64,000 nt of DNA from Candidatus Omnitrophota bacterium (GTDB lineage: Bacteria > Omnitrophota > Gorgyraeia > Zapsychrales > Zapsychraceae): the NCBI GenBank assembly GCA_028280285.1, contig JANQMA010000012.1, forward strand, positions 24,817 through 88,816. The letters run 5' to 3'. The translations under genes and the position numbers were made by a program. A model generated the notes under the pieces. It did no database searches. It was not told the origin of the DNA and saw nothing but the letters and a program-made list of their open reading frames with translations. This document shows, piece by piece, positions 1-50,500 of the stretch; position 1 is the stretch's first letter, and each line of letters opens with the position of its first letter.

Positions 1-3000
1 ACCTGCTCGCCCAGGATTATTTGCTCAAACAGCTTACCGCGTCACTGATGTATCCGGAAGGTGAGTTGGGGCAAAAATTCTGGGAACGTATTAGGCAAAC
101 AGATGCTGGATCCTTGATGCTAGATGCTAGATCCGAAATCCAGGATCTAGGATCTAGCATCAAGGATCTAACATCTATGTTCAATAAAGTCTGGATTGTT
201 CCGAGCAAGGCGGTTGTCTATGAACGCGATCAGGTGGCGTATGTGGGGGAAGTTGAGTTTAAAGTGATGTTGGAAAATGACTATTTAGCGTATAGCGAAC
301 AGCGGATAGCGGATAGTAGTGTTCAGCAATCAGCTGATAACTCTCTAAACGCTAACCGCTATACGCCAAACGCTGAAATCATCCGCGAAGTGATCATTCC
401 AGCTCTTGAGCAAGAAGTGAATCAGGGCCAACATTTCGCCAAGCTCCGCCAAATACAACACTCGCTCATTCTTGCCACATGGTATAAACAAAAACTGAAA
501 GACTCACTTTTAACGCAAGTCTACGCTGATCAAAACAAAACCAAAGGCATCGATATTGCTAATCCACAAGAGCAAATCCAAGGTATTTATGACCAATACA
601 CCGAAGCCTTCAAGCAGGGTGTTTATGATTATATTAAGGAAGAATACGATCCGGCTACACAGCAAATTATCCCGCGCAAGTATTTTTCTGGAGGAATCGA
701 TGAAGCGGCTTTAAAGGAAACAATTTCCGTGCAAGATCTTGCTGCGATGACCAATAAAGATGACTTTATGCAGGGTGAACCCTATGGAGCTCAAGTGCGG
801 TTAGATTCGGCGGTGTTGTCAAAAGCAAAGAAACAGCATATTTACGACAGACTGGAGTATTTTATTCATGATATAAAAAGTAAACATGCCGTAGTTGAGG
901 TCAGTATACCACGTATAGCTGAAGATATTATTGCTGGTTTTGACGATGAATATCAAGACTTTAGAGACAGTTACGGGAATCTAATAAGTATTAGAGATGG
1001 CATGCACAAAACTATTGAAAAACGGGGAGATGTGAAATTTATATCAGATAGAAGATATACCAACTTAGAAAAAACATACAAAGAACTGCTTGCGAATTTA
1101 GAACTGATTAGAAGCCAGTCATTAAAAAATCTGGTTAATCAAAAGAAGATTCAACTACAATCAAAACAAAATATTATACGCATCAAAAAAATGGTGGATG
1201 AGATATATTTTATATTAGGCTCTGTTTTAAACGATGAACTAATCATTAGATCGTTTATGGCCGAAGATCTTTTCCCTTCCAGCCAGAACATTCTACCGCA
1301 ACAAAGAGAAGGGCTTAAGATTTATAAGAAGATAAAGGGCGATAATTTTGAAGTGCAGGGGGATAAGGTCTATTTGAAAAGGGTTTTGGATAATTTGCTC
1401 AAAAATGCGGCCCAGGCGATCTATGATAATGATAGTAAAGAGAGAAATATTACAATTACAATGCGGAAAATGGGACGGCGTTATTATGAAATACGTATGA
1501 AAGACACGGGGGCAGGAATTGTGAACACAAGGCTTTCTAAAATATTTAACCGCGGAGAGTCTAGTAATGGAGTTGGTCATGGGCTGGGTTTGCCTTTTGT
1601 TGCGGATGTTGTTAAAAAACATAATGGCCAGATTCGTGTGCGCAGTAGTTTAGGCAAGGGTGCGGAATTTATCATCACACTGCCAAGGAAAAAAGAGGAT
1701 ATTGAAAGGAATGGTGCGGATTTTAAAATTACGTATGAATCTATGGACGCGGCGGGTTTATCGGAGGCAGTAGAGGAGGATGTTTCTGATAGCTGGATGT
1801 TGACAGAAGATAGGGAAAGAATGGCAGCTCTTGAAAGAGACTTGGAAAAAAGGACTGGTGATGTCGAAGAGAAAAAAGAAGCTGTTGCACAGTTTAGGCG
1901 ATTTTTAAAAGATGTGCATGAAGGTCAAGCAGTTGTCGATGGAGAGGGGCGCCTTATTGGTCAAAACATGATGGCATTATTACATGAGGATATGACAGAA
2001 ACCCATATGCAGCAATGGGCACTTGCCCACTATAAAGATGATGTTTACGCAAATCGCTTACGGGCGCTTATCATTTTGACATCATTTTTTCATGATGATG
2101 TCCTGGGTAATACATTAACGGCTTTCGGTCAAAGTCTGGTTTTTGTTAATGGGGTTACAGAGCAACAGACTAAAGAATTTAAGCAGTTGTCAAGTAAGGT
2201 TAATAACAGTCTTAGTCAACTAACGTACAATCGATTTTCCACGGTGAATTTAAAGGATGGGTTTCAAAAATTACAGGCGTTGATTGAAGAAGTACACGCA
2301 GTCGACTTACCGCAATTACGTGAAACGTTTGGCGAAGAATTTTTTAACATAAATAAAATTTTTGACGAATACTTTTTAAAAATCGAGAATGTTTTTACAG
2401 AATTTAACGAGCAGCTGTCGCATCTAGATCCGGCGAGTTTGAGCGATGAGGATGTGCAGCGGATTTTAGGGATGGATGATCCTGTGATTAACGGGCTTCA
2501 AAAACATTTGGATAGCCCCGTGCGTAAGGCAACTAATGAAGGGTTGATTGTCCCGAAAGTATGGAGCGGGCTGGATAAACAGATTAATATTGTTCAAGAG
2601 ATTAGAGGCGTCATTGCAGAGGCTATAAAAGATGTTCAAGATCCGTCGGGGGCTGATCTCGATCCACGGAAAGTTATCATTCAGATTCCTTCCAGTTTAG
2701 AGCAGTTGCGCTACGATAACGGAAAAGTTTTTTGGCGGGCAGTAAGAGATATTGATATCGATTTATTTTTACCGTATGGATGGCAAGGAGTAAGTATCAC
2801 AAGAGGTAATAAATCTGTAAGATTGCCTGCATATCTCAAAGAACGGTTAGTAGATTATGAGAATAAGCTTGGGATGTCGGAAGGCAAAAAGCTTGATTTA
2901 AATATCATCGAGTTAACACCGTCGACTTTTTTAGAGTATATTGAGGATGGCAAGTTGAAATTTCATTGGGCTTATTTATTCCTTCCGCAAAATCTATATT

Positions 3001-6000: not shown

Positions 6001-6569
6001 CTCTTGAAGAGGATGGGCATATTAGGGATAAATCCAATTGGAAATTTAACTTCGCTGCTTTAATTCTTGCGGTGAGAATAGCCATTAAGCATCGTATTAC
6101 GTCTGTAGAGGCGATTATAGAGTTACAAAAATATTTGGAGACCACTAATGAGGAAGACCTCGATGCAGATACACTTATTACATTAGGAACTTTAGGCTTA
6201 AGTGAGTATGCAAAAAATGTGAAATATGATGAAACAAATAGAAAAGTGTTAAAACAATTTTCTTATGCTGATGCTGCAGCGTTAGAAGAAGCACCTGGAG
6301 GGATTGATTTGACGCCGCAGGCGTGGGATTTGGATACAGTTGGTGCCGAGGGACAGAATTGCGCCGATGATGAGCCTGATTCAGGGTGTATCCGGCTCAA
6401 CTTTCCACCTGAGCAGATTGAGCAGATGAGAAACAGTATTGACGGCTTTGTGCCGGTGATTATCAACTTCCAACCTATCACCAACCTGCCGCTCTTTTTA
6501 GGGCTTAAAGATACCGAAATGCCACAACCAGTTGAAATAAAAGAAGAATTAGCTGTTTTACGGGAATGA
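1..6569 (+). CDS. Giant multidomain protein (C-terminal 2182 aa visible; 5' end lies upstream of the window) with an embedded HATPase_c/GHKL ATPase domain
   Basis: The frame is open from nt 3 to the stop at 6567-6569, so the first in-window TTG at 21 is not the true start. An internal segment has the N-box (DNLLKNAAQA), G1 (KDTGAGI), G2 (GHGLGLPF) and G3 (GKGAEFIITLP) motifs of histidine-kinase-type ATPases. The remainder has no family I can name from sequence. Confidence 0.7.
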   Translation, partial: LLAQDYLLKQLTASLMYPEGELGQKFWERIRQTDAGSLMLDARSEIQDLGSSIKDLTSMFNKVWIVPSKAVVYERDQVAYVGEVEFKVMLENDYLAYSEQRIADSSVQQSADNSLNANRYTPNAEIIREVIIPALEQEVNQGQHFAKLRQIQHSLILATWYKQKLKDSLLTQVYADQNKTKGIDIANPQEQIQGIYDQYTEAFKQGVYDYIKEEYDPATQQIIPRKYFSGGIDEAALKETISVQDLAAMTNKDDFMQGEPYGAQVRLDSAVLSKAKKQHIYDRLEYFIHDIKSKHAVVEVSIPRIAEDIIAGFDDEYQDFRDSYGNLISIRDGMHKTIEKRGDVKFISDRRYTNLEKTYKELLANLELIRSQSLKNLVNQKKIQLQSKQNIIRIKKMVDEIYFILGSVLNDELIIRSFMAEDLFPSSQNILPQQREGLKIYKKIKGDNFEVQGDKVYLKRVLDNLLKNAAQAIYDNDSKERNITITMRKMGRRYYEIRMKDTGAGIVNTRLSKIFNRGESSNGVGHGLGLPFVADVVKKHNGQIRVRSSLGKGAEFIITLPRKKEDIERNGADFKITYESMDAAGLSEAVEEDVSDSWMLTEDRERMAALERDLEKRTGDVEEKKEAVAQFRRFLKDVHEGQAVVDGEGRLIGQNMMALLHEDMTETHMQQWALAHYKDDVYANRLRALIILTSFFHDDVLGNTLTAFGQSLVFVNGVTEQQTKEFKQLSSKVNNSLSQLTYNRFSTVNLKDGFQKLQALIEEVHAVDLPQLRETFGEEFFNINKIFDEYFLKIENVFTEFNEQLSHLDPASLSDEDVQRILGMDDPVINGLQKHLDSPVRKATNEGLIVPKVWSGLDKQINIVQEIRGVIAEAIKDVQDPSGADLDPRKVIIQIPSSLEQLRYDNGKVFWRAVRDIDIDLFLPYGWQGVSITRGNKSVRLPAYLKERLVDYENKLGMSEGKKLDLNIIELTPSTFLEYIEDGKLKFHWAYLFLPQNLYYGDVEHLENYIKQRVKDVGINDYWKAVLKGYAMVYSEAEDYFEERDYDKVLKRLLIAAHFRQDKEAIKDIRNRMMQRYGEAKHVRFSREFVRKYLDHAKPPYDIQWTTEQADSANLKKEDVDQVTWSVWQEILDLFEHGHFKAQQLDRNWYEEKLKNKKVTVSLLRKIKREIDEDINWVDEKNRIKEGLIKYKGDIHKIKMEFSDVYMHSTRIANFIKQNEELYELFMKYWKTAMLEEKSAFLKAIEKTIPKYRQWDKYGRQYYFNVSEITAKFERWFEDWDTPKTRPLKDLVKNEIKERTNWLIAIRYITKTINGEQIDFQGEYGIEGTSIKAFARTLIKRDKELSDKIKGKILWYIGRSARDAASFSDKDLKKYDIKVLKGGQDRLVDDPWPNSIFFHEVIVYIYDTEGRLLLTRNNDATEQDDLEIFIRIKDNLLDDNKLSAEDIAERILYEDFRLQANRDSFVQLDTEYLKDPVNNRRNRFHKRTQLIYPAASDELRRMQEYYNKRKFDALWLISVDHLDDFKRDHGDVLGGSKDIYESVKSKVFKQIDKNVFEPKRKQQEADELEQYRQKLFPEWEIRESIIQDIKAKVAVSLTPDDTIKGKGAKIKSWLLNRIREDASLLDILNPFSNKNLAEIWEVSEQSVRAIMSQLFLSYPSKRDLGWKRHAFPDQVYTFDDYVKSKGDNRQYDYLISYYAEKFGVEPMSYEEAKAVYEKADEEQKEGNKKSKKTLEEIDQTHPAIREYIAPRVARQLRLGSDVIEPLVDALVYETYHGVYDLDEIFKLLNMGSQDRKFVRARWFTQLPINPDEVRSKFIKEGIIKDDEAALISLEDFKDLLPEYFVENSDNPYELNRNFYHTYGVRSLRGQFYQGVYQLRKTLINEKTHSLSRYLELNAPEQNFEDFGFDESDILRIKLIGRKLGLWTFYFDQESLAITEFRISEDMYNKHIVMYEDMDQFMMQIAKSIFNVFSIDTAGDELIPFANFVYETSPIDQLWYALEEDGHIRDKSNWKFNFAALILAVRIAIKHRITSVEAIIELQKYLETTNEEDLDADTLITLGTLGLSEYAKNVKYDETNRKVLKQFSYADAAALEEAPGGIDLTPQAWDLDTVGAEGQNCADDEPDSGCIRLNFPPEQIEQMRNSIDGFVPVIINFQPITNLPLFLGLKDTEMPQPVEIKEELAVLRE
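1340..1690 (+). other. HATPase_c (histidine kinase-like ATPase) domain inside the giant ORF
   Basis: The peptide runs GDKVYLKRVLDNLLKNAAQAI...MKDTGAGI...GVGHGLGLPFVADVVKKHNGQIRVRSSLGKGAEFIITLP. No recognisable H-box/DHp dimerisation segment lies immediately upstream. Confidence 0.6.
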
Positions 6570-6777
6570 TAGCGGTGATTTTAGGTTTAAGGCGTTAGGT
6601 GTTGGGTGTAAGATGAAAACAATATGTTCAACCTAAAACCTAATCCCTACAACCCTTTTTAACTTTTATATGATAAGAAAGCGTTTTCTTAAAACCCTCC
6701 GATCCAACACCTTAGCCTAAGAAAATGTGGCATACTTGTTATATGGGATGCATTGTGTGTCCGAAAGGAGGTGCGCT

Positions 6778-7059
6778 ATGAAACGAGTACTTACACTAAC
6801 AGTAGCGTTGGCCTTTGTTTTTGCATGTGCAGTTCCGGCGTTTGCCTATGATATGGAGCGCCCAGTGAAGAAAATCACTGAAGGAACAGTAGATGTAATC
6901 AAATCACCACTTCACCTTGTTGAAAAGCCAATTGATGGCTTAAAAAACCATGACTATCCTGTCATTGGTTTCATGAAAGGTCTTCTTAAAGGACCATTTC
7001 ATACACTGAAAAAAGCAGGTGGTGGCGTGGTAGATATAGCTACTTTCCCAATTAAGTAG
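6778..7059 (+). CDS. Small secreted hypothetical protein (~93 aa)
   Basis: A strong SD (AAAGGAGG) precedes ATG 6778. The N-terminal signal peptide is MKRVLTLTVALAFVFACAVPAFA. No domain was recognised. The longer ORF-track start at 6727 lacks an RBS. Confidence 0.5.
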   Translation: MKRVLTLTVALAFVFACAVPAFAYDMERPVKKITEGTVDVIKSPLHLVEKPIDGLKNHDYPVIGFMKGLLKGPFHTLKKAGGGVVDIATFPIK

Positions 7060-7105
7060 TTATGTCTTAAACATTTGCGAGTACGTTGATTTGATATAAC
7101 GTACG

Positions 7106-7140
7106 CCCGGGCCGGCTCCCTAGGGAGCCGGTCCTTTTTT
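7106..7140 (+). terminator. Rho-independent terminator
   Basis: A GC-rich hairpin CCGGCTCCC-TAGG-GAGCCGG is followed by TTTTTT, downstream of the small secreted ORF. Confidence 0.7.
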
Positions 7141-7305
7141 GTCCATTTCTTCAGTGTTTACCATAATTAAACTTTGTGCTATGATACCGCCCTGAAATTC
7201 AAGAGCCCTTTGCAAACCTATGGGGTTACGATGGGAAAGTCCCTATTAAACCTCATAGGTTGTGATGGCATTCTAATATATATTACTTAAAAAATAGAGG
7301 GACGT

Positions 7306-7926
7306 ATGATGGACGACAGAGATAGAGTTTTGGACTTTTGGTTCGAAGGCCTGGAAGAAGGCACGGTTGTGACAACCGATAGTGATCTTCATAAATGGTG
7401 GTTCGCCAGAACCGATGAGATGAATAAAAAGATTGCTGATGGGTTTAAAGCTGATCTTAAACATGCCGCTTTCGGGGATTATGACAGCTGGCGCGACCCT
7501 AAGGGGCGCTTGGCCCTTGTGATTATCTGTGATCAGTTTTCGCGGTGCGCAGGCAAAGGCACAGCCCGTGCGTATGACAATGATCTTAAGGCGCTCGAGC
7601 AAGCCTTGTATTGTGTCAAAAAAGGGGAGGACAAAGAATTGTCATTCATTGAAAGAATCTTTCTTTATCTGCCGCTTATGCATTCTGAGACCATGGAAAT
7701 TCAGGAGATTTCGCTTAAGTGTTATCGTGATTTGGTAACCGAGGCCGAAGAAGCAGAGGACATCAATACAGAGTATTTTAAGTATGTGTTAGGTCTTGCT
7801 CAAAATTGTTATACCATCATCAATGAGTTTAAACGTTTTCCGCAACGCAACAAACTACTCAAACGCAAGGCCACATCGACGGAAATAAACTTCGTTCAGA
7901 ATCCAGATAATTTAATTGAAACATAA
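7306..7926 (+). CDS. DUF924 family protein
   Basis: The N-terminal VLDFWF...WF signature and ~200 aa size are typical of DUF924. An AG-rich RBS precedes the start. Confidence 0.55.
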   Translation: MMDDRDRVLDFWFEGLEEGTVVTTDSDLHKWWFARTDEMNKKIADGFKADLKHAAFGDYDSWRDPKGRLALVIICDQFSRCAGKGTARAYDNDLKALEQALYCVKKGEDKELSFIERIFLYLPLMHSETMEIQEISLKCYRDLVTEAEEAEDINTEYFKYVLGLAQNCYTIINEFKRFPQRNKLLKRKATSTEINFVQNPDNLIET

Positions 7927-7941
7927 ACTAAGGGGGGGAAT

Positions 7942-8169
7942 ATGGGAGACGATAAATGCAATTGTGGTAAATTTGGTTTATGGATTATTATTTTACTTTT
8001 GATTAATACTTTTTTTATTGGAAGTATTTGGTGCAAAATGGTTATGCAGTGCAAAACGAGCAAATGTTCTTGGTCTAAAAGCGGTTCAAAAATCTGTCCT
8101 TTAACTGGCAAAAATCTTGATGGCGCTAAGGGCTCGGCCATGGATGCTAAAGGTTCAAAGGCCGAATAA
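7942..8169 (+). CDS. Small Cys-rich membrane protein (75 aa), hypothetical
   Basis: A very strong SD (AAGGGGGGG, 5-nt spacer) precedes the start. There is one predicted TM helix (GLWIIILLLINTFFIGSIW) flanked by Cys clusters (CNC...C...C...C...C). Confidence 0.45.
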   Translation: MGDDKCNCGKFGLWIIILLLINTFFIGSIWCKMVMQCKTSKCSWSKSGSKICPLTGKNLDGAKGSAMDAKGSKAE

Positions 8170-8170
8170 G

Positions 8171-8266
8171 TTTATCGGTCACGGTCACGGTGACGATGCC
8201 CGTATCGTCTACCGTTAACGTCCAACGTTACCGATACGGGCATCGTAATCGAAAAACGTTACCGAG
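8171..8266. repeat. Conserved palindromic leader element, copy A (upstream of ptsP-like gene)
   Basis: A 13-bp perfect stem GATGCCCGTATCG/CGATACGGGCATC encloses nested palindromes (CGTTAACG, AACGTT). It is about 80% identical to the element at 46770-46850. Confidence 0.6.
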
Positions 8267-10531
8267 TTGTTAAATATGGAACAAGCACGGATCAAAAATC
8301 ATACACAGCTTCTTTGTGATGTCGGAGAGCTTGCGGGACTGTTTCATGATTCAACCAGCCTCGAGGGCTTTCTGCAGCGCATCGTCGAGATGGTTGCCGA
8401 GCATATCAAGGCCGAGGTGTGTTCGATTTATCTTTTTTATGAAGATACACAAGAATTGGAATTAAGAGCGACTAAAGGTCTTAACAAGGATCTTATCGGT
8501 AATGTTAAGTTGAAACTCGGTGAAGGGTTAACCGGTTTGGCTCTTAAAGAGTTACGTCCTGTTAGAGAAGAAAATGCGAGTAAAAATGAAAACTTCAAAT
8601 TTTTTCCGGGGTTGGGGGAAGAGCAGTATGAATCATTTCTAGCCGTGCCTATTCTGCGTGGACGCTCGCGCATCGGCGTTATGGTTGTGCAAAAAATAAC
8701 TAAACACTATTTTTCCGAGGAAGATGCAACTGTCCTGCGGGCGATTACCTCGCAATTGGCTAATACCATTGAAATGACCCGCGTTATTCTCGGAGTGGAT
8801 GAAGAGCATGATCTGCGCAAGGAATCTTTTCAAGAAGAGCAGGCCGACATTATTTATGGCCAGGTCGGTTCCTCCGGTTTTGCATTGGCTGAAGGTTTGG
8901 TTATTAAGGATGATGTGGAAAAGTTGATTGTTGAAGATAATAAAACGTATTCCTATGATGATCTTGAACGTGCATTTGCCGAGACCGAAGAACAACTTGA
9001 GAGTATGCAGACCCAAATTGAAGAGAGGCTCGCCGATGTCGCCTCGCTTATTTTTTCCGCTCAAATTCTTATGCTTAAAGATAAAAGTTTTGTGGATCAT
9101 ATCCGCAATGGTGTCAGCAATGGCGAAAACCCTCCGCAGGCCGTACTACGCGTTGTTAATCAATACATAGATAAATTCAGCAATATCCCCAATCCTTATA
9201 TTCGCGAAAAGGCAAATGATGTGCGTGATATCGGTAAACGTCTTCTTAATAACCTGACGGACAAAAAGGATGTGTATTCCGATACGCAAGATAAAATTAT
9301 TATTGCTAAGGAGCTTTTGCCGTCGGATGCGCTCAAATTTAGCTCCCAGGGGGTTAAGGGAATCATTGTTTTACGCGGTGGGGCAACGGGCCATTTAGCG
9401 ATTTTGGCTCAGTCGCTTCAGATACCGCTGATCATCGCAGATGTCAAAAGTCTTCTTAACACACCTTTAGCTACGCCGATTTTGATGGATGGTAATCAAG
9501 GCCTTATTCATATCAATCCGTCGGATGAGATTATTAAATCTTATGAGAGTTTTGTCACGCATGCTGTAGATCTTGAGGTGCTTAAACAAGAGGTGAAAGA
9601 CACAACCCAAACGGTTGACGGGACATCTATTGATTTATACGCCAACATTAATTTATTAAATGATCTTGACCACGCAATTGCCTTTAAAGCACAAGGGGTC
9701 GGGCTTTATCGCACGGAGTTTCCATTTATTGTGCGCAGTAATTTTCCTAATGAAGAAGAGCAACTGCTTGTTTACCGGAAATTATTATCCCAGATGGAAG
9801 GCAAGGAGGTGACGATCCGTACCCTTGATATCGGTGGAGATAAGGTGCTCAATTACTTTCAGGAAAACGCGAATGAAACCAATCCTTTTCTGGGGTTGCG
9901 TTCCATCCGTTTCTCTCTTAAATATCAGGATATTTTCCGGAATCAAATCCGGGCGATTTTACGTGCCGCGGCTGACAGGGAGTCTATTCGCATTATGTTT
10001 CCTATGATCTCATCGCTTGATGAATTTATCGATTCCAGGGCTGTTGTGTATGAATGCATTGAAGAGCTAAAGTCCTATAATCTTGATTTTTGTGCAAATG
10101 TGCAAATCGGTATGATGGTTGAAATCCCATCTGTCGTTGGGATTATTTATGATTTAGCCAAAGAGGTGGATTTTTTCTCAATCGGTAGTAATGATTTTGT
10201 GCAGTACATGTTGGCGGTTGACCGCACGAATGAAAAGGTGTCTTATCTTTATATGCCACATCATCCGGCCGTGTTAAGAGGTCTTAATAAGATTGTTACT
10301 AAGGCCTGCGAAATGGATAAGCCTGTTTCGCTTTGCGGAGACATGGCACATGATGAAAGGTATTTGGAGTTTCTTATCGGTATTGGACTAACAAATTTTA
10401 GTATTAACCCGCTTTATATTCCACGTGTACAAAAATTTATCGAGGGCCTTGATGCCAAGCAAGCTAAAGAAAAAGCGTATGAGGTGCTTAAGATGAATAG
10501 TCTTACGGAGCTGGGTAAGGTATTTGAATAA
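8267..10531 (+). CDS. ptsP: GAF domain-containing phosphoenolpyruvate-protein phosphotransferase (enzyme I-Ntr type)
   Basis: An N-terminal GAF-like region is followed by EI signatures: GGATGHLAILAQSLQIPLI (phosphohistidine mobile domain), LYRTEF and SIGSNDFVQYMLAVDRTNE (PEP-utilising TIM barrel). The likely true start is ATG 8276 (MEQARIK). Confidence 0.8.
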   Translation: MLNMEQARIKNHTQLLCDVGELAGLFHDSTSLEGFLQRIVEMVAEHIKAEVCSIYLFYEDTQELELRATKGLNKDLIGNVKLKLGEGLTGLALKELRPVREENASKNENFKFFPGLGEEQYESFLAVPILRGRSRIGVMVVQKITKHYFSEEDATVLRAITSQLANTIEMTRVILGVDEEHDLRKESFQEEQADIIYGQVGSSGFALAEGLVIKDDVEKLIVEDNKTYSYDDLERAFAETEEQLESMQTQIEERLADVASLIFSAQILMLKDKSFVDHIRNGVSNGENPPQAVLRVVNQYIDKFSNIPNPYIREKANDVRDIGKRLLNNLTDKKDVYSDTQDKIIIAKELLPSDALKFSSQGVKGIIVLRGGATGHLAILAQSLQIPLIIADVKSLLNTPLATPILMDGNQGLIHINPSDEIIKSYESFVTHAVDLEVLKQEVKDTTQTVDGTSIDLYANINLLNDLDHAIAFKAQGVGLYRTEFPFIVRSNFPNEEEQLLVYRKLLSQMEGKEVTIRTLDIGGDKVLNYFQENANETNPFLGLRSIRFSLKYQDIFRNQIRAILRAAADRESIRIMFPMISSLDEFIDSRAVVYECIEELKSYNLDFCANVQIGMMVEIPSVVGIIYDLAKEVDFFSIGSNDFVQYMLAVDRTNEKVSYLYMPHHPAVLRGLNKIVTKACEMDKPVSLCGDMAHDERYLEFLIGIGLTNFSINPLYIPRVQKFIEGLDAKQAKEKAYEVLKMNSLTELGKVFE

Positions 10532-10537
10532 TAAATT

Positions 10538-10605
10538 TGTGTAATGTGTCATGTGTTATGTGTAATAAAAATTTTAATTACACGTTACACTTTACACATT
10601 ACACA
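10538..10605. repeat. Unique imperfect inverted repeat (heptamer-word arms) in the ptsP-ychF spacer
   Basis: Left arm tgtgtaatgtgtcatgtgttatgtgtaat and right arm attacacgttacactttacacattacaca match at about 24 of 29 positions as a reverse complement. Confidence 0.6.
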
Positions 10606-10624
10606 GTAGAAGCAAGGAGCAAGA

Positions 10625-11698
10625 ATGGAAATTGGAATCGTTGGCCTGCCTAACGTCGGTAAATCAACTTTGTTTAATGCCCTAACGGGGGCTTCAGCAG
10701 CATCGGAAAACTTTCCGTTTACAACGATTGAACCGAATGTCGGTATTGTACCGCTTCCTGATATACGTTTGGGTGAACTTGTTAAGCGTAACAATTCACA
10801 AAAGGAAGTACCGGCCGGGATCCGGTTTGTGGATATTGCAGGGCTTGTCAAAGGCGCCTCTGCCGGCGAAGGTTTAGGCAATAAATTCTTGTCGAACATA
10901 AGATCCTGCGAAGCGATTGCGCATGTGGTGCGGTGTTTTGAAGATGATGATGTGGTTAATGTTATGGGGGCACTTGATCCGGATGGAGCCGCTGAAATTA
11001 TTGAAACGGAACTCATGATTGCCGATATGCAGCAGATTGAAAAAACCATTGATCGTTTACGTAAGATCGCTAAAACAGGGGATAAAGAGGCCCAAGCCAA
11101 GCTGCCTCATTTAGAGACAGCGCTTAAAGGCCTAGAGGAGGGCAAGTCGGTCAGAACACTCGGAATTCCGGAAGATATTGTGCAGGAGTATCAATTTCTT
11201 TCTGGTAAACCGATTCTTTATGTTGCCAATATTGATGAAAACAATTCAGCCCCCGAGGCGATTGAAAAATTAAAAGCGCGTGCCAAGCGCGAAGGCGCCG
11301 AGATCGTTGTATTATGTGCGAAGATGGAGGCCGAAATTGTGCAACTACCCGAGGAGGACCGCTCCGATTATTATGAAGCGGCCGATATCGATAAACCAGG
11401 TTTGCATACCCTCGCTGAAGCGGGATGTCGCCTTTTAAAGCTTGTTTGTTTTTTTACCTCTGGGGAAAAAGAAACCCGTGCTTGGTTGATTCCTGAAGGC
11501 ACCAAAGCCCCCCGTGCCGCTGGGAAAATTCATACCGACATCGAACGCGGATTTATCCGGGCCGAAACATATACCTACGACGATTTAATCAAACATGAAT
11601 CAGAGTCTGCCCTGCGCTCAGAAGGTCTTATGCGCTTAGAAGGCAAAGAGTATGTGATGCAGGATGGGGATGTGGTTCACTTCAGGTTCAGTGTGTAA
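10625..11698 (+). CDS. ychF: Redox-regulated ribosome-binding ATPase YchF
   Basis: The N-terminus MEIGIVGLPNVGKSTLFNALT is the Obg-like GTPase G1 motif. Length is 357 aa with a C-terminal TGS-like domain. SD AAGGAG precedes the start. Confidence 0.9.
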   Translation: MEIGIVGLPNVGKSTLFNALTGASAASENFPFTTIEPNVGIVPLPDIRLGELVKRNNSQKEVPAGIRFVDIAGLVKGASAGEGLGNKFLSNIRSCEAIAHVVRCFEDDDVVNVMGALDPDGAAEIIETELMIADMQQIEKTIDRLRKIAKTGDKEAQAKLPHLETALKGLEEGKSVRTLGIPEDIVQEYQFLSGKPILYVANIDENNSAPEAIEKLKARAKREGAEIVVLCAKMEAEIVQLPEEDRSDYYEAADIDKPGLHTLAEAGCRLLKLVCFFTSGEKETRAWLIPEGTKAPRAAGKIHTDIERGFIRAETYTYDDLIKHESESALRSEGLMRLEGKEYVMQDGDVVHFRFSV

Positions 11699-11702
11699 AG
11701 GG

Positions 11703-11882
11703 AATAAAGATAAAAAGTGGTAAAGTGATAGAGTGGCAGAGTGGTAAAAAGGTTAAAGGTTGAAATTAAATTGTTAATCTTAAACCTATAATATTACTTT
11801 TATCTTTATTATTTCTTGATTGTTTTACTATCACTCTACCACCAATTATCACTTTACTTATGCTTATCACTTTTTACCTTTG
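11703..11882. repeat. Strand-asymmetric word-repeat region in the ychF-dinB spacer
   Basis: The left ~60 nt is almost C-free and built from gtggtaaa / gtgataga / gtggcaga words. The right ~95 nt is almost G-free and built from the complementary words ttatcactt / ctctaccacc / ttacttt. Confidence 0.5.
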
Positions 11883-11898
11883 ACACGGAGCTCATAAA

Positions 11899-13101
11899 TT
11901 GCTAACGCGCAAGATCGCCCACCTCGACATGGATGCCTTTTTTGCGGCCGTTGAACAGCGGGATAATCCTTCTCTTAAAGGAAAACCTGTTGTCATCGGT
12001 GCTGACCCGAAGGGAGGGCAAGGGCGCGGCGTTGTGTCTACCTGCTCTTATGAGGCGCGTCCCTTTGGCATTCATTCGGCCATGCCAATAACGCGTGCGT
12101 ATCGTTTATGTCCACATGCTGTTTATTTGCGGGGTAATTCCCGTAAATACCGTCATGCTTCCAATCAAATTTTTGATATTCTTAAAAATTATACACCGGA
12201 CATTCAACCAATATCCATTGATGAGGCCTTTATGGACATCTCGGGATGTTTTCATGGATCAGAGACAGCAACTGATCTTTGTTGTCGGATTAAAGATCAC
12301 ATTAAAAGAGAGGTACAGCTTAATGCCTCTATTGGCATTGCGCCCAACAAAATGATCGCCAAAATTGCCTCGGATTATTGCAAGCCTGATGGCTTGCTTG
12401 AGATAAAGCCGGAGGACATGCTCAACTTTTTATGGCCGCTGCCGATTGGTAAGATTTGGGGCGTTGGTGCTAAAACGCAAGAAGCGCTCGTCGCGATGAA
12501 TATTAATAATGTCGGAGATCTTGCCAAGTATCCGGTAGACAAACTGCACGCACGTTTTGGGGAATATGGAATTAAGCTTTCGAAATTAGCTAATGGGATT
12601 GATGAGCGTCCGGTCGAGGATGATGATGAAGTTAAATCAGTCTCTAATGAACATACCTTTGATACCGATACACGTAATCTCGATGAAATTTATGATAAGC
12701 TGCTTTTTCTAAGCCAAAAGGTTGCCCGTCGCCTGCGTCGCCATGGACTTAAAGGAAAGACGATAGGTATTAAAATCCGTACCGCGGATTTTCGTACCAT
12801 TACCCGTGCGCATACTATTGGTCAACGTATTCATTTTGATGATATTATTTACAAGGAAGTTAAACAGATGTTTGAGGCTAATTATAAGCCTAACACGCGT
12901 ATTCGCTTGATCGGTGTGCGGGTATCTAATTTCGAAGATCCGTATGTTCAGGAAAGCTTGTTTGAATCACCGGAAGATAGTAAGAGAGAAAGTATGTACA
13001 AAGCAATCGATCAGATTAAAGATAAATACGGAGAAAAGGCCATTAAGAGCGGTCATGTGAAAACGCATGAAAACAAAGAAGTACGGGACAGGAATTTGTA
13101 A
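11899..13101 (+). CDS. dinB: DNA polymerase IV
   Basis: The N-terminus has the HLDMDAFFAAVE motif of Y-family polymerases. Length is 400 aa with little-finger-domain conservation. Confidence 0.9.
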   Translation: MLTRKIAHLDMDAFFAAVEQRDNPSLKGKPVVIGADPKGGQGRGVVSTCSYEARPFGIHSAMPITRAYRLCPHAVYLRGNSRKYRHASNQIFDILKNYTPDIQPISIDEAFMDISGCFHGSETATDLCCRIKDHIKREVQLNASIGIAPNKMIAKIASDYCKPDGLLEIKPEDMLNFLWPLPIGKIWGVGAKTQEALVAMNINNVGDLAKYPVDKLHARFGEYGIKLSKLANGIDERPVEDDDEVKSVSNEHTFDTDTRNLDEIYDKLLFLSQKVARRLRRHGLKGKTIGIKIRTADFRTITRAHTIGQRIHFDDIIYKEVKQMFEANYKPNTRIRLIGVRVSNFEDPYVQESLFESPEDSKRESMYKAIDQIKDKYGEKAIKSGHVKTHENKEVRDRNL

Positions 13102-13418
13102 CTGGTAAAAACCACGTATTAACTTGTCTAATATACCAAATATGGTATAAATATAATATCCGGCTCGAGGCCGGTTGTATTGCATTGTGCAGCGACTTAA
13201 ATCGTTTGCGAGACCGTGAACGATTCTCCGGAGCGAAACAATGCAATACAGAACCCCGAGAGCTTTATTTATAGTTCTCGTTGGGCTTCTGCATTGGTTG
13301 CTTCGTTCCGTGCGCCGTTTGCCTCTGCTAAACGGCTTAAGTCACTCAGCAATCCAATGCAAACGGCCAACTCGAACCAATAAATATGCATTCACAAAAA
13401 ATTTGGAGGCAATTAATT

Positions 13419-13763
13419 ATGAAGGAAAAAATAATAAAAGGGAGTGACAATGTTTTTAAAGACATTGAGGCAAAAAATCCTAAACAATCTTTGGCACGTT
13501 CGGTTATTATGTCTTTGATTACCAAGGAAATCCAGGAGCGAGGTTTGACTCAAATTCAGGCGGGAAAAATCCTTGATTTACCGCAGTCAAAAGTGTCCGG
13601 TCTGATCAATGGTAAGTTGAGCCTTTTTTCTCTTGAGCATTTATGTAAAATGTTGGCTGCACTAGGCAACACAGTCTATATTTCGATTAGAAAAAAATCT
13701 CAAACATCCAAAGTGCACAAGCCAAGGAAAAGAGTAAAGGAAGTATTGGTTAAAGTGCAGTAA
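13419..13763 (+). CDS. XRE-family HTH protein, HigA-like antitoxin-type
   Basis: SD GGAGG lies 9 nt before ATG 13419. The N-terminal GSDNVFKDI motif and an HTH (TQIQAGKILDLPQSKVSGLINGK) are typical of HigA-type XRE antitoxins. No toxin partner ORF was found. Confidence 0.55.
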   Translation: MKEKIIKGSDNVFKDIEAKNPKQSLARSVIMSLITKEIQERGLTQIQAGKILDLPQSKVSGLINGKLSLFSLEHLCKMLAALGNTVYISIRKKSQTSKVHKPRKRVKEVLVKVQ

Positions 13764-13775
13764 CTGCCCGTAGAT

Positions 13776-14615
13776 TTATCTCTTGCTGAAGTACCTTTTC
13801 TGCAATTCCTTCTTTAAAAATTTAAATGCCTCGTCGACATCATCATAGATGTGGAACAAATTAAGGTCACTTTTAGAAATGACACCCCATTTATCCAGGG
13901 CCTTGAAGTTAATCACATCATTCCAAAATTCACGTCCGAACAGAATAACTGGCATATACTTTTTTGTTTTCTGTGTTTGAATGATGGTGAGTAGTTCAAA
14001 GAGCTCATCAAATGTACCAAAACCGCCAGGGAAAACGACCAGCGCCTTGGCCAGGTAGAAAAACCAGAATTTGCGGATGAAAAAATAATGAAATTCAAAA
14101 GAAATGTCAGACGTTTGATAGGGATTGGGATCTTGTTCAAACGGAAGGCTAATATTAAGGCCGACTGATTTGCCGCCTGCTTTTTTGGCGCCGAGATTAG
14201 CCGCTTCCATCATGCCCGGACCACCACCGGAGCAAATATAAAAATGCTGCTTTTTATGATTGGCCTGGTTGAACCAGTGTGTTAATTTTTTCGCTAAGTC
14301 AACGGCCTGTTCATGATAATGGGCCAGTTTGACGGCATGCTCAGCTTTTTCGATAAGATGTGCGTAGTCTGCGTCTTTTTTATGACAACGTTTAGCGTAG
14401 GTTAGCTTTTTCTGAGCCTCTTTTAAAGAAGTAGATCTGGCTGATCCAAAAAAGACAACGGTGTTATGCACATCATTAACCCGCAAACGGTGGGCTGGCT
14501 CAATGAGCTCGCACATGATGCGAATATTACGCGCCGTAGGAGAGGCGAGAAAGTTTGGGTTTTTATAGGCCTTGATGATGGAGGCTTTTTTTGTTTTTTT
14601 GCGAGATTTAGTCAT
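13776..14615 (-). CDS. LOG family protein (TIGR00730 Rossmann-fold nucleotide-binding / cytokinin riboside 5'-monophosphate phosphoribohydrolase-like)
   Basis: Carries the GGGPGMMEA motif and the PGGFGTFDELFE motif (PGGxGTxxE). Confidence 0.75.
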   Translation of the reverse strand: MTKSRKKTKKASIIKAYKNPNFLASPTARNIRIMCELIEPAHRLRVNDVHNTVVFFGSARSTSLKEAQKKLTYAKRCHKKDADYAHLIEKAEHAVKLAHYHEQAVDLAKKLTHWFNQANHKKQHFYICSGGGPGMMEAANLGAKKAGGKSVGLNISLPFEQDPNPYQTSDISFEFHYFFIRKFWFFYLAKALVVFPGGFGTFDELFELLTIIQTQKTKKYMPVILFGREFWNDVINFKALDKWGVISKSDLNLFHIYDDVDEAFKFLKKELQKRYFSKR

Positions 14616-14640
14616 TTCGTGTCCTTCGAAATAGATAAAT

Positions 14641-14712
14641 TTGTTTAATGTTTATAGTTTAATGTTTATTAAGTTTACTTAAACTTTAAACAGTAAACAT
14701 TAAACTGTTTGT
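14641..14712. repeat. AT-rich intergenic inverted-repeat family, copy 1
   Basis: Sequence is ttgtttaatgtttatagtttaatgtttatt...aaactttaaacagtaaacattaaactgttt. Related copies lie at 17451, 37117, 40656 and 43750. Confidence 0.6.
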
Positions 14713-14713
14713 A

Positions 14714-15562
14714 TTATTTTAACTTCAGTTCCGCCCAAATCGGAATATGATCGCTGGCTGATTTATCAATCACTTTGCCTTTATCAATGATGTCAAAGTT
14801 ACGTGTGTAAAAATGGTCTAATGTCGGTTTTTTATGCGCGAGAAACCAGGCGTGGTTGGTCCAGCCAATGTCATCTGTGACCCAGTCATAGTTATTGCGT
14901 TTAAATGCAGTAAATATTTCATTCTGATCTTTTTTGGTGAATGTATTAAAATCACCGCCGACAATCACATGCGTTATCTCTTCAGGGATAGTCGCGAGGA
15001 TTTTATCAATCCGTTGACGCCGTTCTGTCGGCCGGTTAAATATTCCTAAGTGAAGAGAGATCGCCGCTATGTTTGTCCCGCGGTAATCCAGTATTGTGAC
15101 AACTGCGATGCGCTGACGTTTATTAATATTTTTGTTGGGTAAAATGACTTTATAATCACTCGTAATTTTCCATTTAGACAAAACGGCATTGCCAAAGTCT
15201 TTTCCGTTAATGGGATGCAACACAGCCGGATAATAAACGTAATTATATTGAAGGGCCTGTGCAATACGCTCAACACCGTCTTGATCCATTTCCTGCAGCA
15301 AGATAATGTCGGCATCATTCAGTTCTGCGTGTGAGGACAGCACGTTCGTTGCCTTGGTTATTTTTTTTGCGTATTTGATATTATAGGAGACAACTTTGAT
15401 ATTTTTGTCAGGGTTAACCCACCCCTTGACAATGTTGTCAGATGCATAGCGTGGTTTTTCTGTAGATGTATAATTTCTCAAATAATCCTCTATCTGACTA
15501 CATCCGTTTAGAATTAAGCCTGCTAGAAGGCATATCAGAAGGTGTTTTGATTTAGAAATCAT
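14714..15562 (-). CDS. Endonuclease/exonuclease/phosphatase (EEP) family lipoprotein
   Basis: A lipobox (LNGCSQ) follows the signal peptide. EEP-like motifs are present (LQEMDQ, GGDFNTF, SDHIPIWAEL). Confidence 0.6.
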   Translation of the reverse strand: MISKSKHLLICLLAGLILNGCSQIEDYLRNYTSTEKPRYASDNIVKGWVNPDKNIKVVSYNIKYAKKITKATNVLSSHAELNDADIILLQEMDQDGVERIAQALQYNYVYYPAVLHPINGKDFGNAVLSKWKITSDYKVILPNKNINKRQRIAVVTILDYRGTNIAAISLHLGIFNRPTERRQRIDKILATIPEEITHVIVGGDFNTFTKKDQNEIFTAFKRNNYDWVTDDIGWTNHAWFLAHKKPTLDHFYTRNFDIIDKGKVIDKSASDHIPIWAELKLK

Positions 15563-15673
15563 GCATAACCGTCATAATATTTTCATATCACCAGCACGCC
15601 AAAAGTATAGCACATTTTTACTGTAATTTTATATTTTCCCTTTAAAATATAATTGTCTTTCAACAGGTATTAT

Positions 15674-16333: not shown

Positions 16334-16436
16334 TTTATCTAAAGAGTGATCAGAGTTCAGTGATCAGTGGTCAGTTTCCATGGTCTATGATTACTGAGCA
16401 CTGGTCACTGATCACTTGTAAAAAAAGGAGCAAGGC

Positions 16437-16718: not shown

Positions 16719-16720
16719 TA

Positions 16721-17441: not shown

Positions 17442-17450
17442 TAGGTTTGT

Positions 17451-17517
17451 TCAATGTTTAGAGTTTATTGTTTTAAAATCGTGGTTAAACATTAAACAGT
17501 AAACTTTAAACTGTTTG
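17451..17517. repeat. AT-rich intergenic inverted-repeat family, copy 2
   Basis: Sequence is tcaatgtttagagtttattgtttt...aaacattaaacagtaaactttaaactgtttg. Confidence 0.55.
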
Positions 17518-17557
17518 ATGATAATGATTGTTTTCTAAAGAAAGGTTAAGCTACACA

Positions 17558-32050: not shown

Positions 32051-32142
32051 TAAAGTGATTTGGGATTGGTGCTTGATGGTTGGTTTTAAAACCAATCACA
32101 AACCACCAGCCGCCGATCACGCAATCAATAAAGGAGTCGTAA

Positions 32143-37103: not shown

Positions 37104-37116
37104 AGACCTCCATAGG

Positions 37117-37182
37117 GTTTAATGTTTAATGTGCAATGTTTAATCAGGTTTTTTAAACGTTAAACTTTAAACATTAAACAGA
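37117..37182. repeat. AT-rich intergenic inverted-repeat family, copy 3
   Basis: Sequence is gtttaatgtttaatgtgcaatgtttaatc...aaacgttaaactttaaacattaaacag. Confidence 0.55.
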
Positions 37183-40655: not shown

Positions 40656-40728
40656 TTAACTTGTTTAAAGTTTATTGTTTAAAAATATTTAATAACACAT
40701 TAAACAATCAACATTAAACATTAAACTT
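40656..40728. repeat. AT-rich intergenic inverted-repeat family, copy 4
   Basis: Sequence is gtttaaagtttattgtttaaaaa...cacattaaacaatcaacattaaacattaaac. Confidence 0.5.
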
Positions 40729-43749: not shown

Positions 43750-43866
43750 ATTGTTTATTGTTTAATGTTTATAGTTTAAACAAGAGTAAAAAAGTGGAAT
43801 AACGATACTTTTAATGTATTTTTTAAATTTTTTTTAAACATTAAACTTTAAACAGTAAACAAATTT
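43750..43866. repeat. AT-rich intergenic inverted-repeat family, copy 5 (longest)
   Basis: Left arm ttgtttattgtttaatgtttatagtttaaac, a ~60-nt centre, then aaacattaaactttaaacagtaaac. It shares an exact 22-mer (ttgtttaatgtttatagtttaa) with copy 1. Confidence 0.55.
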
Positions 43867-50415: not shown

Positions 50416-50419
50416 TTAA

Positions 50420-50500
50420 TGTTGTTAGTTGCTCGTTGTTAGTTGTTGGATCACAACAACCAACAACCAACAACCAACAACGATTGAAACCTTGCTAACT
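50420..50500. repeat. Unique imperfect inverted repeat (GTTGTTAG words / CAACAACC words)
   Basis: Left arm gttgttagttgctcgttgttagttgttgg and right arm cacaacaaccaacaaccaacaacg have a C-free versus G-free strand asymmetry. Confidence 0.55.

What the first reader, a model, noticed from the sequence alone, without database searches (positions are those of the whole stretch)
10538..10605. Many intergenic spacers carry long, gene-specific imperfect inverted repeats built from degenerate 7-8-nt words with a strand-composition switch
This applies to the spacers at 6575-6720, 10538-10605, 11703-11882, 16342-16417, 32056-32140 and 50420-50500. In each, the first half is nearly C-free (words such as gtgtaat, gtggtaaa, gtgatcag, gttgttag, ttaggtg). 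The second half is nearly G-free and made of the complementary words. Each spacer uses a different word, so these are not copies of one mobile element. They can form 20-40-bp imperfect hairpins. In some cases the word order suggests segment-wise rather than strictly mirror complementarity, which I could not resolve by eye. So many independent, non-homologous palindromes is unusual for ordinary Rho-independent terminators.
Basis: seen in the sequence. Interest (0 to 1): 0.55.

Follow-up and report, generated by a model that had tools for sequence, protein, structure and literature searches.

The report
Hairpins built from tandem 7-base repeats
The spacers between genes in this uncultured Omnitrophota bacterium carry hairpins whose arms are each about four tandem copies of a 7-base word, G-containing arm first; they look like fast-evolving palindromic microsatellites rather than transcription terminators, and the same architecture recurs in unrelated bacteria.

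Summary
All six cited spacers hold long imperfect hairpins with a C-poor 5' arm and a G-poor 3' arm, far beyond chance: 15 strong hairpins against 0.4 in shuffles.

Each arm is about four tandem copies of a 7-nt unit (8 nt in one case). I count 13 such hairpins. Five share the word GTTTAAT, so words are not all locus-specific. Arms pair almost as well when slid by 7 nt (72-73%) as in the mirror register (78%). That explains the "segment-wise" impression.

They are unlikely to be terminators:
- none has a U-tract;
- they fill spacers inside probable operons (xseA|xseB, ptsP|ychF|dinB);
- two lie in frame inside a conserved coding region;
- a relative with 87% YchF identity has 16- and 23-nt spacers with no hairpin;
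- a canonical terminator is positionally conserved nearby.

The closest known relatives are heptanucleotide microsatellites, especially the convergent GGGAATC pairs of Xanthomonas. New here are many non-G-quadruplex words in one genome, and a strong "G-arm first" bias across phyla (26 versus 2).

Best reading: slippage-driven palindromic microsatellites, tolerated where harmless. Function and the cause of the polarity remain open.

The parts
10537..10606 (.). H3. Heptad hairpin (TGTGTAA)x4 / (TTACACN)x4 with a 10-nt loop. It lies between ptsP and ychF. This is the finding's index case.
   Evidence: (z -6.5)
6584..6716 (.). H1. G/T-rich arm at 6584-6613 (units TTAGGTG/TTGGGTG). It has two alternative A/C-rich partner arms, at 6625-6654 and 6696-6716. 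It follows the giant gene.
11705..11881 (.). H4. The longest hairpin. The left arm has period 8 (AAAGTGGT, about 4.4 copies), with G/C 19/1. The right arm has G/C 2/16. It lies between ychF and dinB.
   Evidence: (z -5.7)
16344..16417 (.). H6. Heptad hairpin (AGTGATC)x4.4 / (TGATCAC)x4.1, upstream of the PPIase gene.
32055..32120 (.). H8. Heptad hairpin (GATTGGT-type units) between xseA (30746-32050) and xseB (32143-32340).
50419..50483 (.). H13. Heptad hairpin with a degenerate left arm (GTTGTTA x3.9) and a perfect right arm (CAACAAC x4.0, 100% matches). It lies between the S41 peptidase gene and a glycosyltransferase gene.
14640..14708 (.). H5. GTTTAAT-word heptad hairpin between two minus-strand genes.
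17451..17517 (.). H7. GTTTAAT-word heptad hairpin.
37115..37181 (.). H9. GTTTAAT-word heptad hairpin between convergent genes.
40660..40728 (.). H10. GTTTAAT-word heptad hairpin.
43750..43866 (.). H11. GTTTAAT-word heptad hairpin with a long loop, 8 nt upstream of gcvT.
101..176 (+). H0. Heptad hairpin (AGATGCT x4.6 / ATCTAGG x4.7) translated in frame inside the conserved N-terminal domain of the 2188-aa protein. It coincides with an 11-12-aa insertion relative to 14 homologues.
   Evidence: (z -11.5)
284..377 (+). H0b. Heptad hairpin (TAGCGGA x4.4 / CTAAACG x4.3) translated in frame in a variable linker of the same protein.
   Evidence: (z -7.2)
7109..7140 (+). Contrast feature, not a heptad hairpin. 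This is a canonical intrinsic terminator (11-bp GC stem plus T6). It is conserved in position, but not in sequence, in two relatives.

Best explanation
These are palindromic heptanucleotide microsatellites. Each is an inverted pair of short tandem arrays (about 4 units of 7 nt) of one word, with the G-containing, C-poor array always 5' of its C-containing, G-poor complement.

Proposed origin and turnover (inferred, not shown):
- Arrays arise and change by replication slippage in 7-nt steps.
- The two arms are kept on the same word by inverted duplication or arm-on-arm templating.
- They persist only where extra sequence is harmless. In practice that means the few nucleotides between a stop codon and the next ribosome-binding site, and variable linkers of proteins.

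Likely consequence when transcribed (inferred): a 25-45-bp imperfect hairpin that can pair in several registers, sitting in a polycistronic mRNA. It would at most act as a 3'-exonuclease barrier or an RNase III-type processing site. It is not the lineage's terminator.

Shown here: anatomy, period, multi-register pairing, polarity, positions, evolutionary lability and in-frame occurrence.
Inferred: the slippage and template-switch origin, and the RNA consequences.
Unexplained: the cause of the G-first polarity.
For: **Anatomy.**
- Period 7 is the only enriched tandem period: 13 arrays against 0-1 at lags 4-12. Tandem Repeats Finder agrees.
- In 84 other loci (1.1 Mb, many phyla) there are 19 lag-7 arrays against 0-3 for lags 5, 6 and 8-10. 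This matches the published heptamer simple-sequence-repeat excess and the slippage-unit hypothesis cited in PMC4692102 and PMC4679880.

**The arms behave as two arrays, not as a faithful mirror copy.**
- Complementarity is 78% in register and 72-73% at +/-7 nt.
- Variant positions are not mirrored.
- One arm of H13 is a perfect (CAACAAC)x4 while its partner is degenerate.

**No sign of strand-specific RNA selection.**
- Mismatches of G.U type number 15 and of A.C type 10.
- Sense and antisense folding energies are mixed.

**Evolutionary lability.**
- The relative with 87% YchF identity (L082) has 16- and 23-nt ptsP-ychF and ychF-dinB spacers with no hairpin.
- The 85% relative (L083) has an unalignable heptad hairpin (AGTGGTC/AGTGATC) in ychF-dinB.
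- The 79% and 71% relatives have none there.

**Positions incompatible with efficient termination.**
- H8 lies between xseA and xseB. Others lie within ptsP-ychF-dinB.
- The hairpins begin 3-14 nt after the stop codon and end 8-24 nt before the next start codon (coordinates).

**In-frame occurrence.** H0 and H0b are translated inside a conserved Omnitrophota domain. H0 is an 11-12-aa insertion relative to 14 homologues.

**Contrast.** A canonical GC-stem plus U-tract terminator is positionally conserved after the orthologous small gene in all three genomes.
Against: - The polarity is too consistent for a purely neutral process. All 12 compositionally asymmetric hairpins in the window are G-first. 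Over all sequence examined, the composition-blind tally is 26 G-first against 2 C-first.
- Every arm has about 4 units (3.9-4.7 copies). This is narrower than free slippage would suggest, although the lower bound is set by the detection threshold.
- The word GTTTAAN recurs in many unrelated contigs with GC 0.32-0.60. That hints at a preferred or functional word.
- One orthologous pair in another lineage (L134/L137) keeps its hairpin.
- No direct evidence of slippage, such as +/-7-nt polymorphism, could be obtained. Only one strain of this genome is available.
Confidence: 0.5

Rival explanations
1. The hairpins are functional RNA elements in polycistronic mRNAs. They could act as intercistronic hairpins that stabilise the upstream segment or direct RNase III-type processing, as REP hairpins and the stem-loops of selective RNA processing and stabilisation operons do. 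A variant is a hairpin gated by an OB-fold RNA chaperone (cold-shock protein or S1) that loads on the G/U-rich heptads before the complementary arm is transcribed.
For: - The hairpins sit precisely between the stop codon and the next ribosome-binding site, in co-oriented gene strings.
- Folding is strong and significant.
- The strict "G/U arm first" order makes sense for co-transcriptional loading. It also makes sense for avoiding exposure of a C-rich, G-free stretch resembling a Rho utilisation site.
- A cold-shock domain binds one heptamer per protein, according to the work summarised in PMC4679880.
- All arms have about 4 units.
Against: - The hairpins are not conserved at orthologous junctions in relatives with 79-87% YchF identity.
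- No compensatory changes are seen, and there is no G.U over A.C bias on the sense strand.
- For H13 the antisense RNA folds much better than the sense RNA, -39.7 against -27.5 kcal/mol.
- Two copies lie inside a coding sequence.
- There is no shared heptamer consensus across words: information content 4.6 against a null of 4.31 +/- 0.17.
Confidence: 0.25
2. The hairpins are non-canonical, U-tract-less, bidirectional transcription terminators or insulators used by this lineage.
For: - They lie just downstream of stop codons.
- One lies between convergent genes (H9) and one after the giant gene (H1).
- They are palindromic and therefore bidirectional.
- The stems are long.
Against: - None has a T-run. 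The terminator scan does not pick any of them up.
- They separate xseA from xseB with no room for a promoter.
- Close relatives have 16-23-nt spacers at the same junctions.
- The lineage demonstrably has canonical terminators that are conserved in position.
- Two lie inside an intact 2188-aa open reading frame.
Confidence: 0.1
3. The hairpins are miniature mobile elements (REP/REPIN-like or MITE-like) belonging to several families. They would be copied around the genome by a trans-acting enzyme, and the "different words" would be different families.
For: - The GTTTAAT hairpins at 14640, 17451 and 43750 share the unit order TTAAACAGTAAAC. This suggests copying rather than convergence.
- Hairpins appear as insertions relative to L082, and one as an in-frame insertion in a gene. 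The latter recalls Rickettsia palindromic elements (my recollection).
- A separate REP-like two-copy repeat does exist in the window, at 8186-8251 and 46772-46846, with 75% identity.
Against: - Family members share only the heptamer word. Loops, flanks and termini differ, and no terminal inverted repeats, target-site duplications or GTAG/CGTC heads are seen.
- Most words occur once in 64 kb.
- No transposase, RAYT or reverse transcriptase was found among the roughly 40 window proteins scanned.
- Multi-register pairing and the perfect (CAACAAC)4 arm point to in-situ slippage.
Confidence: 0.1

Closest known systems
Convergent inverted pairs of GGGAATC heptamer repeats in Xanthomonas intergenic regions (Rehm et al. 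2015, PMC4692102)
   Same: - Both are intergenic tandem heptamers.
- There are 70-75 cases per Xanthomonas genome in which a plus-strand G-rich array is followed closely by a minus-strand one ("convergent"). This is the same G-first hairpin architecture.
- Length and sequence vary between close species, while the type of repeat tends to persist.
   Different: - Xanthomonas uses essentially one G-tract word, and it was interpreted through G-quadruplex formation.
- Here one 64-kb window holds about nine different words, most without G-tracts (GTTTAAT, TGTGTAA, TTGTTAG and others). G-quadruplexes therefore cannot be the common denominator.
- Every array in the window is paired, and arms are uniformly about 4 units.
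Heptanucleotide simple-sequence-repeat excess in bacteria, and cyanobacterial STRR repeats (Mrazek 2007 and Mazel 1990, as cited in PMC4692102 and PMC4679880)
   Same: - A unit length of 7 is uniquely over-represented.
- The repeats lie in intergenic positions.
- The proposed origin is polymerase slippage with a 7-nt step.
   Different: - Those reports concern mainly direct arrays of a few genome-wide words.
- Inverted pairing, polarity and multi-word usage were not described as a rule, as far as the papers I could read show.
TAACTGA direct repeats of marine Beggiatoaceae, cyanobacteria and Bacteroidetes (MacGregor 2015, PMC4679880)
   Same: - Both are intergenic heptamer arrays of 2-6 copies next to start codons.
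- The word is shared across distant phyla, as GTTTAAN is here.
- OB-fold proteins (S1, cold-shock proteins) were proposed as one-per-heptamer binders.
   Different: - Those are direct repeats, oriented relative to the downstream gene. Only one inverted case was found among 170.
- Here the repeats are always inverted pairs.
REP / REPIN elements (Bertels and Rainey 2011, PMC3116915)
   Same: Both are extragenic imperfect palindromes of 70-100 nt that fold as long hairpins. Both are tolerated between co-transcribed genes, with roles in mRNA stability proposed.
   Different: - REPINs are near-identical copies with conserved heads, and they are mobilised by a RAYT transposase.
- The hairpins here share only architecture, or at most a 7-mer word, and are internally tandem-repetitive.
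Intrinsic (Rho-independent) terminators
   Same: Both are hairpins placed shortly after a stop codon.
   Different: The hairpins here have no U-tract, have A/T-rich stems with periodic mismatches, lie inside probable operons and an open reading frame, and are not conserved. The true canonical terminator nearby is conserved.
Rickettsia palindromic elements (my recollection of Ogata et al. 2000; not checked here)
   Same: Both are palindromic sequences found in frame inside protein-coding genes as well as between genes.
   Different: Rickettsia palindromic elements are a conserved family of 100-150 bp. H0 and H0b are unique heptad arrays.

Membership tests
Heptanucleotide simple-sequence repeats (STRR / long simple-sequence repeats) | Head-to-tail copies of a 7-nt unit, at least 3-4 copies | tested here: met
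   Tandem Repeats Finder reports period 7, 3.9-4.7 copies and 73-100% matches in 21 arms. Lag-7 autocorrelation is 0.64. The window has 13 lag-7 arrays against about 0.1 in shuffles.
Heptanucleotide simple-sequence repeats (STRR / long simple-sequence repeats) | Predominantly intergenic location | tested here: met
   11 of 13 hairpins are intergenic. The other 2 are in frame in a variable part of an open reading frame.
Xanthomonas-type convergent heptamer pairs | A G-rich array on the plus strand followed closely by the same array on the minus strand | tested here: met
   All 12 compositionally asymmetric hairpins in the window are G-first. The composition-blind scan finds 9 of 9 detected pairs in the window to be G-first.
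Xanthomonas-type convergent heptamer pairs | A G-tract word able to form G-quadruplexes (GGGNATC) | tested here: not met
   The words are TGTGTAA, GTTTAAT, AGTGATC, TTGTTAG and similar. None has four G3 tracts.
Intrinsic terminator | A U/T-rich tract immediately 3' of the stem | tested here: not met
   The terminator scan of 1-20000 lists the site at 7109 but none of the heptad hairpins. The sequences following the stems are, for example, GTAGAAGC, GATTGAAA and TGTAAAAA.
Intrinsic terminator | Location at the ends of transcription units | tested here: not met
   H8 lies between xseA and xseB, 22 nt before the xseB start. L082 has 16- and 23-nt spacers at two of the junctions.
REP / REPIN | Many near-identical full-length copies with a conserved GTAG or CGTC head | tested here: not met
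   The five GTTTAAT hairpins share the word but not loops, flanks or ends: 54% mean column identity, with invariant columns confined to the repeat units.
REP / REPIN | A cognate RAYT (Y1 transposase) in the genome | not testable with these tools
   Only 64 kb of the genome is available. No such domain was found among the roughly 40 proteins scanned.
MITE | Terminal inverted repeats of an insertion-sequence family, plus target-site duplication | tested here: not met
   No duplicated flanks or conserved termini appear at the hairpin borders.
Integron attC site | RYYYAAC ... GTTRRRY order of the core sites, in arrays of promoterless cassettes | tested here: not met
   The order here is the opposite (GTT-type units first, AAC-type last). 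The flanking genes are housekeeping genes: ychF, dinB, xseAB and gcv. The attC definition is from my own knowledge.
Any Rfam RNA family | Covariance-model match | tested here: not met
   Only a tRNA passes the gathering threshold. At E <= 0.5 nothing overlaps a heptad hairpin.

The most novel reading that the evidence does not exclude
G-first inverted heptamer arrays may be a widespread, unrecognised class of bacterial cis-element. Its geometry (7-nt units, about 4 per arm) would be set by OB-fold single-strand binders, with one cold-shock or S1 domain per heptamer. On this reading, the G/U-rich 5' arm is a co-transcriptional loading platform. Occupancy of that platform decides whether the hairpin forms. 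That would gate read-through, processing or translation at operon junctions. The near-universal polarity would then reflect the order of transcription, or avoidance of exposing a C-rich, Rho-accessible arm first.
Probability: 0.12. Interest if true: 0.8.

Novelty: new variant of a known kind. Interest (0 to 1): 0.55.

Why it matters
Heptamers are the most over-represented long microsatellite unit in bacteria, and nobody knows why.

This window shows the phenomenon in an extreme and clean form. Every array is paired, there are many different words, and the arm size is uniform. It comes from an uncultured phylum. Because most words cannot form G-quadruplexes, the window also removes the explanation offered for the one well-described case, in Xanthomonas.

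A strong "G-arm first" bias holds across phyla and across words: 26 G-first against 2 C-first in the sequence examined, in addition to the 70-75 convergent pairs per genome published for Xanthomonas. A bias this strong calls for a mechanism. The candidates are a directional mutational process at replication forks and a co-transcriptional constraint such as Rho avoidance or chaperone loading.

There are also practical consequences:
- Such hairpins can be mis-annotated as terminators.
- They can break assemblies.
- They can insert in frame into proteins.

Tried and rejected
- **Known RNA families.** Rfam at the gathering threshold and at E <= 0.5 finds nothing on the hairpins.
- **Strand-specific RNA selection.** Sense against antisense folding energies are mixed. 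The count of G.U-type against A.C-type mismatches, 15 against 10, is not significant.
- **"Three-frame stop module".** First arms carry stop codons in 43 of 66 frames, against 35.4 +/- 3.0 in shuffles (P about 0.009). Most arms do not cover all three frames, so this is at best a weak contributor.
- **A shared heptamer consensus.** Across 30 words from this window, other loci and the literature, the best rotational alignment has information content 4.6, against a null of 4.31 +/- 0.17 with a maximum of 4.71. There is no common motif.
- **Homology of the ychF-dinB hairpins.** The hairpins of the window and L083 are not alignable.
- **Integron attC.** The polarity is the opposite and the flanking genes are housekeeping genes.
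- **Promoter in the hairpins.** None of the listed sigma-70-like hits falls in a hairpin.
- **More of the same genome.** The only other contig carrying the same YchF is 100% identical to window 3359-13206. Two look-ups at the right end of the window found nothing.
- **Elhai et al. 2008.** This paper, on small dispersed repeats within cyanobacterial heptamer arrays, could not be read.
- **Literature on Omnitrophota terminators or hairpins.** The search found nothing relevant.

Full report
**Source of the window.**
The window comes from an uncultured Candidatus Omnitrophota bacterium. Its YchF (10625-11698) is 62-71% identical to YchF of Omnitrophota metagenome-assembled genomes. The N-terminal domain of the giant protein at 3-6569 belongs to a family found almost only in Omnitrophota. 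GC content is about 0.40. The plus strand has a positive GC skew throughout, and nearly all genes lie on it.

**Checking the observation.**
- An ungapped hairpin scan finds 15 hairpins scoring >=12, against a mean of 0.4 in 30 dinucleotide shuffles. It finds 11 scoring >=15, against none. It recovers 10538-10605 exactly.
- RNA folding z-scores for the cited spacers run from -4.4 to -6.5. The exception is 6572-6660, at -2.2. Folded as DNA, the index case gives z = -5.5.
- First arms are nearly C-free and second arms nearly G-free.

- Each arm is a tandem array of a 7-nt unit. Mean autocorrelation within arms is 0.64 at lag 7 and 0.26-0.32 at lags 3-12 otherwise.
- A composition-blind scan finds 13 lag-7 arrays in the window, against 0-1 at every other lag from 4 to 12 and about 0.1 in shuffles.
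- Tandem Repeats Finder independently reports period 7 with 3.9-4.7 copies for essentially every arm. The exception is period 8 for the left arm of 11705-11881.
- All lag-7 arrays are arms of hairpins.
- I count 13 heptad hairpins. Besides the six cited, five use the same word, GTTTAAT: 14640, 17451, 37115, 40660 and 43750. Two more lie at 101-176 and 284-377.
- Because both arms repeat one 7-mer, complementarity is 78% in the mirror register, 72-73% when slid by +/-7 nt, and 24-32% at any other shift. This resolves the "segment-wise versus mirror" puzzle. It also means variant positions are not mirrored between the arms.

**Other palindromes in the window are of different kinds.**
- A canonical terminator lies at 7109-7140.
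- A two-copy dispersed repeat lies at 8186-8251 and 46772-46846.
- Two perfect inverted repeats of 26-27 bp lie at 16717-16792 and 48305-48378.

**Are they terminators?**
- None has a T-run.
- They start 3-14 nt after the stop codon, with one exception. They end 8-24 nt before the next start codon, so they fill spacers that leave room only for a ribosome-binding site.
- One lies between xseA and xseB. Others lie between ptsP, ychF and dinB.
- In the closest relative available (L082, YchF 87% identical), gene order is the same. Its ptsP-ychF and ychF-dinB spacers are 16 and 23 nt, with no hairpin.
- The 85% relative (L083) has a different, unalignable heptad hairpin in ychF-dinB and two more elsewhere in 9 kb. 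The 79% and 71% relatives have none at these junctions.
- By contrast, the GC-stem plus T-run terminator after the orthologous small gene is present in all three genomes, with different stem sequences. The lineage therefore uses canonical terminators where it terminates.

**Two hairpins are translated.**
The hairpins at 101-176 and 284-377 lie inside the open reading frame of the giant protein. They are flanked by strongly conserved residues. The first coincides with an 11-12-aa insertion relative to all 14 aligned homologues. The second sits in a variable linker. A terminator or operon-junction role cannot apply there.

**RNA-level selection.**
I found no support for it.
- Sense and antisense energies are mixed. 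For 50416-50490 the antisense RNA is 12 kcal/mol more stable.
- Mismatches that would be G.U in the sense RNA (15) do not significantly exceed those that would be A.C (10).
- One arm can be a perfect array while its partner is degenerate, as at 50454-50481 against 50421-50447. This looks like independent, recent slippage.

**Generality.**
- In 84 other loci fetched for unrelated reasons (1.1 Mb, many phyla), lag-7 arrays again stand out: 19 against 0-3 for lags 5, 6 and 8-10.
- Many of these are inverted pairs, including L015, L044 (two), L050 (two), L073, L039, L043, L058 and L076.
- A metagenome scan for one right-arm motif, TTAAACAGTAAACNTTAAAC, returned 63 contigs with GC 0.32-0.60. Some carry the same kind of hairpin with GTTTAAN or CGTTTAC words. 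Others carry long solitary arrays.
- A composition-blind tally over everything gives 26 hairpins with the G-richer array first and 2 with the C-richer array first (L097 and L138), plus one or two ambiguous cases.
- A palindrome reads the same on both strands, so this polarity does not depend on how a locus is oriented or on gene direction.

**Comparison with what is known.**
- Heptamers are the most over-represented long simple-sequence-repeat unit in bacteria, and a polymerase slippage step of 7 nt has been proposed (Mrazek 2007, as cited in PMC4692102 and PMC4679880).
- Rehm et al. 2015 describe 70-75 "convergent" inverted pairs of GGGAATC arrays per Xanthomonas genome and discuss G-quadruplexes.
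- MacGregor 2015 describes TAACTGA direct repeats shared by distant phyla. She notes that one cold-shock domain binds one heptamer.
- The present case belongs to this kind but differs in four ways: many words in one genome, most unable to form G-quadruplexes; obligatory pairing; uniform arms of about 4 units; and in-frame copies.
- No common heptamer consensus exists across 30 words.

**Mechanism.**
I commit, at about 0.5, to palindromic microsatellites. On this reading they are generated and remodelled by 7-nt slippage and arm-on-arm templating. They are retained where harmless, and any effect on mRNA is incidental (a 3'-exonuclease barrier or a processing site).
- Shown: anatomy, multi-register pairing, lability, positions and in-frame copies.
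- Inferred: the mutational route and the RNA effects.
- Unexplained: the strict G-first polarity and the uniform arm length. Both are the best arguments for the functional rival.

Candidate explanations for the polarity, all inference:
- Selection against exposing a C-rich, G-free arm resembling a Rho utilisation site before its partner is made.
- Co-transcriptional loading of OB-fold chaperones on the G/U-rich arm.
- A leading-strand-biased template switch.

**Limits.**
Only one strain and 64 kb of this genome were available, so slippage polymorphism and genome-wide copy numbers could not be measured. No transcript data exist here.

Noticed in passing
window 13150-13385: A multi-branched structure of about 220 nt lies between dinB and an HTH_37 gene. 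Its RNA minimum free energy is -103 kcal/mol, with z = -10.9 against shuffles. It has no Rfam match and no BLAST hit in the plasmid collection. It could be an undescribed non-coding RNA or a compound palindrome.
   Followed up: partly
window 16717-16792 and 48305-48378: Two perfect long inverted repeats, with 26- and 27-bp arms and 24- and 20-nt loops (z about -11). They are not heptadic. The left arm of the second is the last 7 codons plus the stop codon of gcvPB, and its right arm ends 1 nt before the lplA ATG. It looks like a recent inverted duplication of local sequence.
   Followed up: partly
window 8186-8251 and 46772-46846: A two-copy dispersed repeat of about 70 nt, 75% identical, with a CCCGTATCG/CGATACGGG stem. 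It contains both G and C and is not heptadic. The second copy sits between gcvPA and gcvPB. It looks like a REP-type family.
   Followed up: partly
window 7109-7140; L082 about 6660-6700; L083 about 497-525: A canonical intrinsic terminator (GC-rich stem plus T-run) follows an orthologous small secreted-protein gene. It is conserved in position, with different stem sequences, in three related genomes.
   Followed up: yes
window 38029-38079: A 24-bp palindrome (GATAAAAGGCGACGGGCACTTTTT tca AAAAAGTGACCGTCGCCCTTTATC) lies between divergently oriented genes (z -7.7 and -9.4 for the two strands). It looks like a bidirectional terminator or an operator, but it sits at gene starts.
   Followed up: no
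window 60700-64000: A long run of 39-nt (13-aa, '..VNWDDI..') tandem repeats with higher-order periods of 78, 117 and 273 nt. It appears to be coding on the plus strand and runs off the window. GC skew is very high there (0.34).
   Followed up: no
window 3-6569: A giant 2188-aa protein with a single HATPase_c domain (residues 453-563). Its N-terminal domain has hundreds of homologues almost exclusively in Omnitrophota. The open reading frame enters from the left edge of the window.
   Followed up: partly
window 6584-6716: The G/T-rich arm of the first cited spacer has two alternative complementary partners, at 6625-6654 and 6696-6716. Two mutually exclusive hairpins are therefore possible.
   Followed up: no
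all heptad arms in the window: Arm length is strikingly uniform, at 3.9-4.7 units by Tandem Repeats Finder. Arrays in other organisms reach 8-16 units (L044, L092, L105).
   Followed up: no
L098 8990-9106; L143 3320-3450; L130: Metagenome contigs retrieved with the TTAAAC motif carry further, different heptad hairpins: ATGGATA / TCAATTT in L098 and ATTGAAA arrays in L143. L130 is a (CCCTAAA)n telomere-type eukaryotic contig, which is an unrelated chance hit.
   Followed up: no
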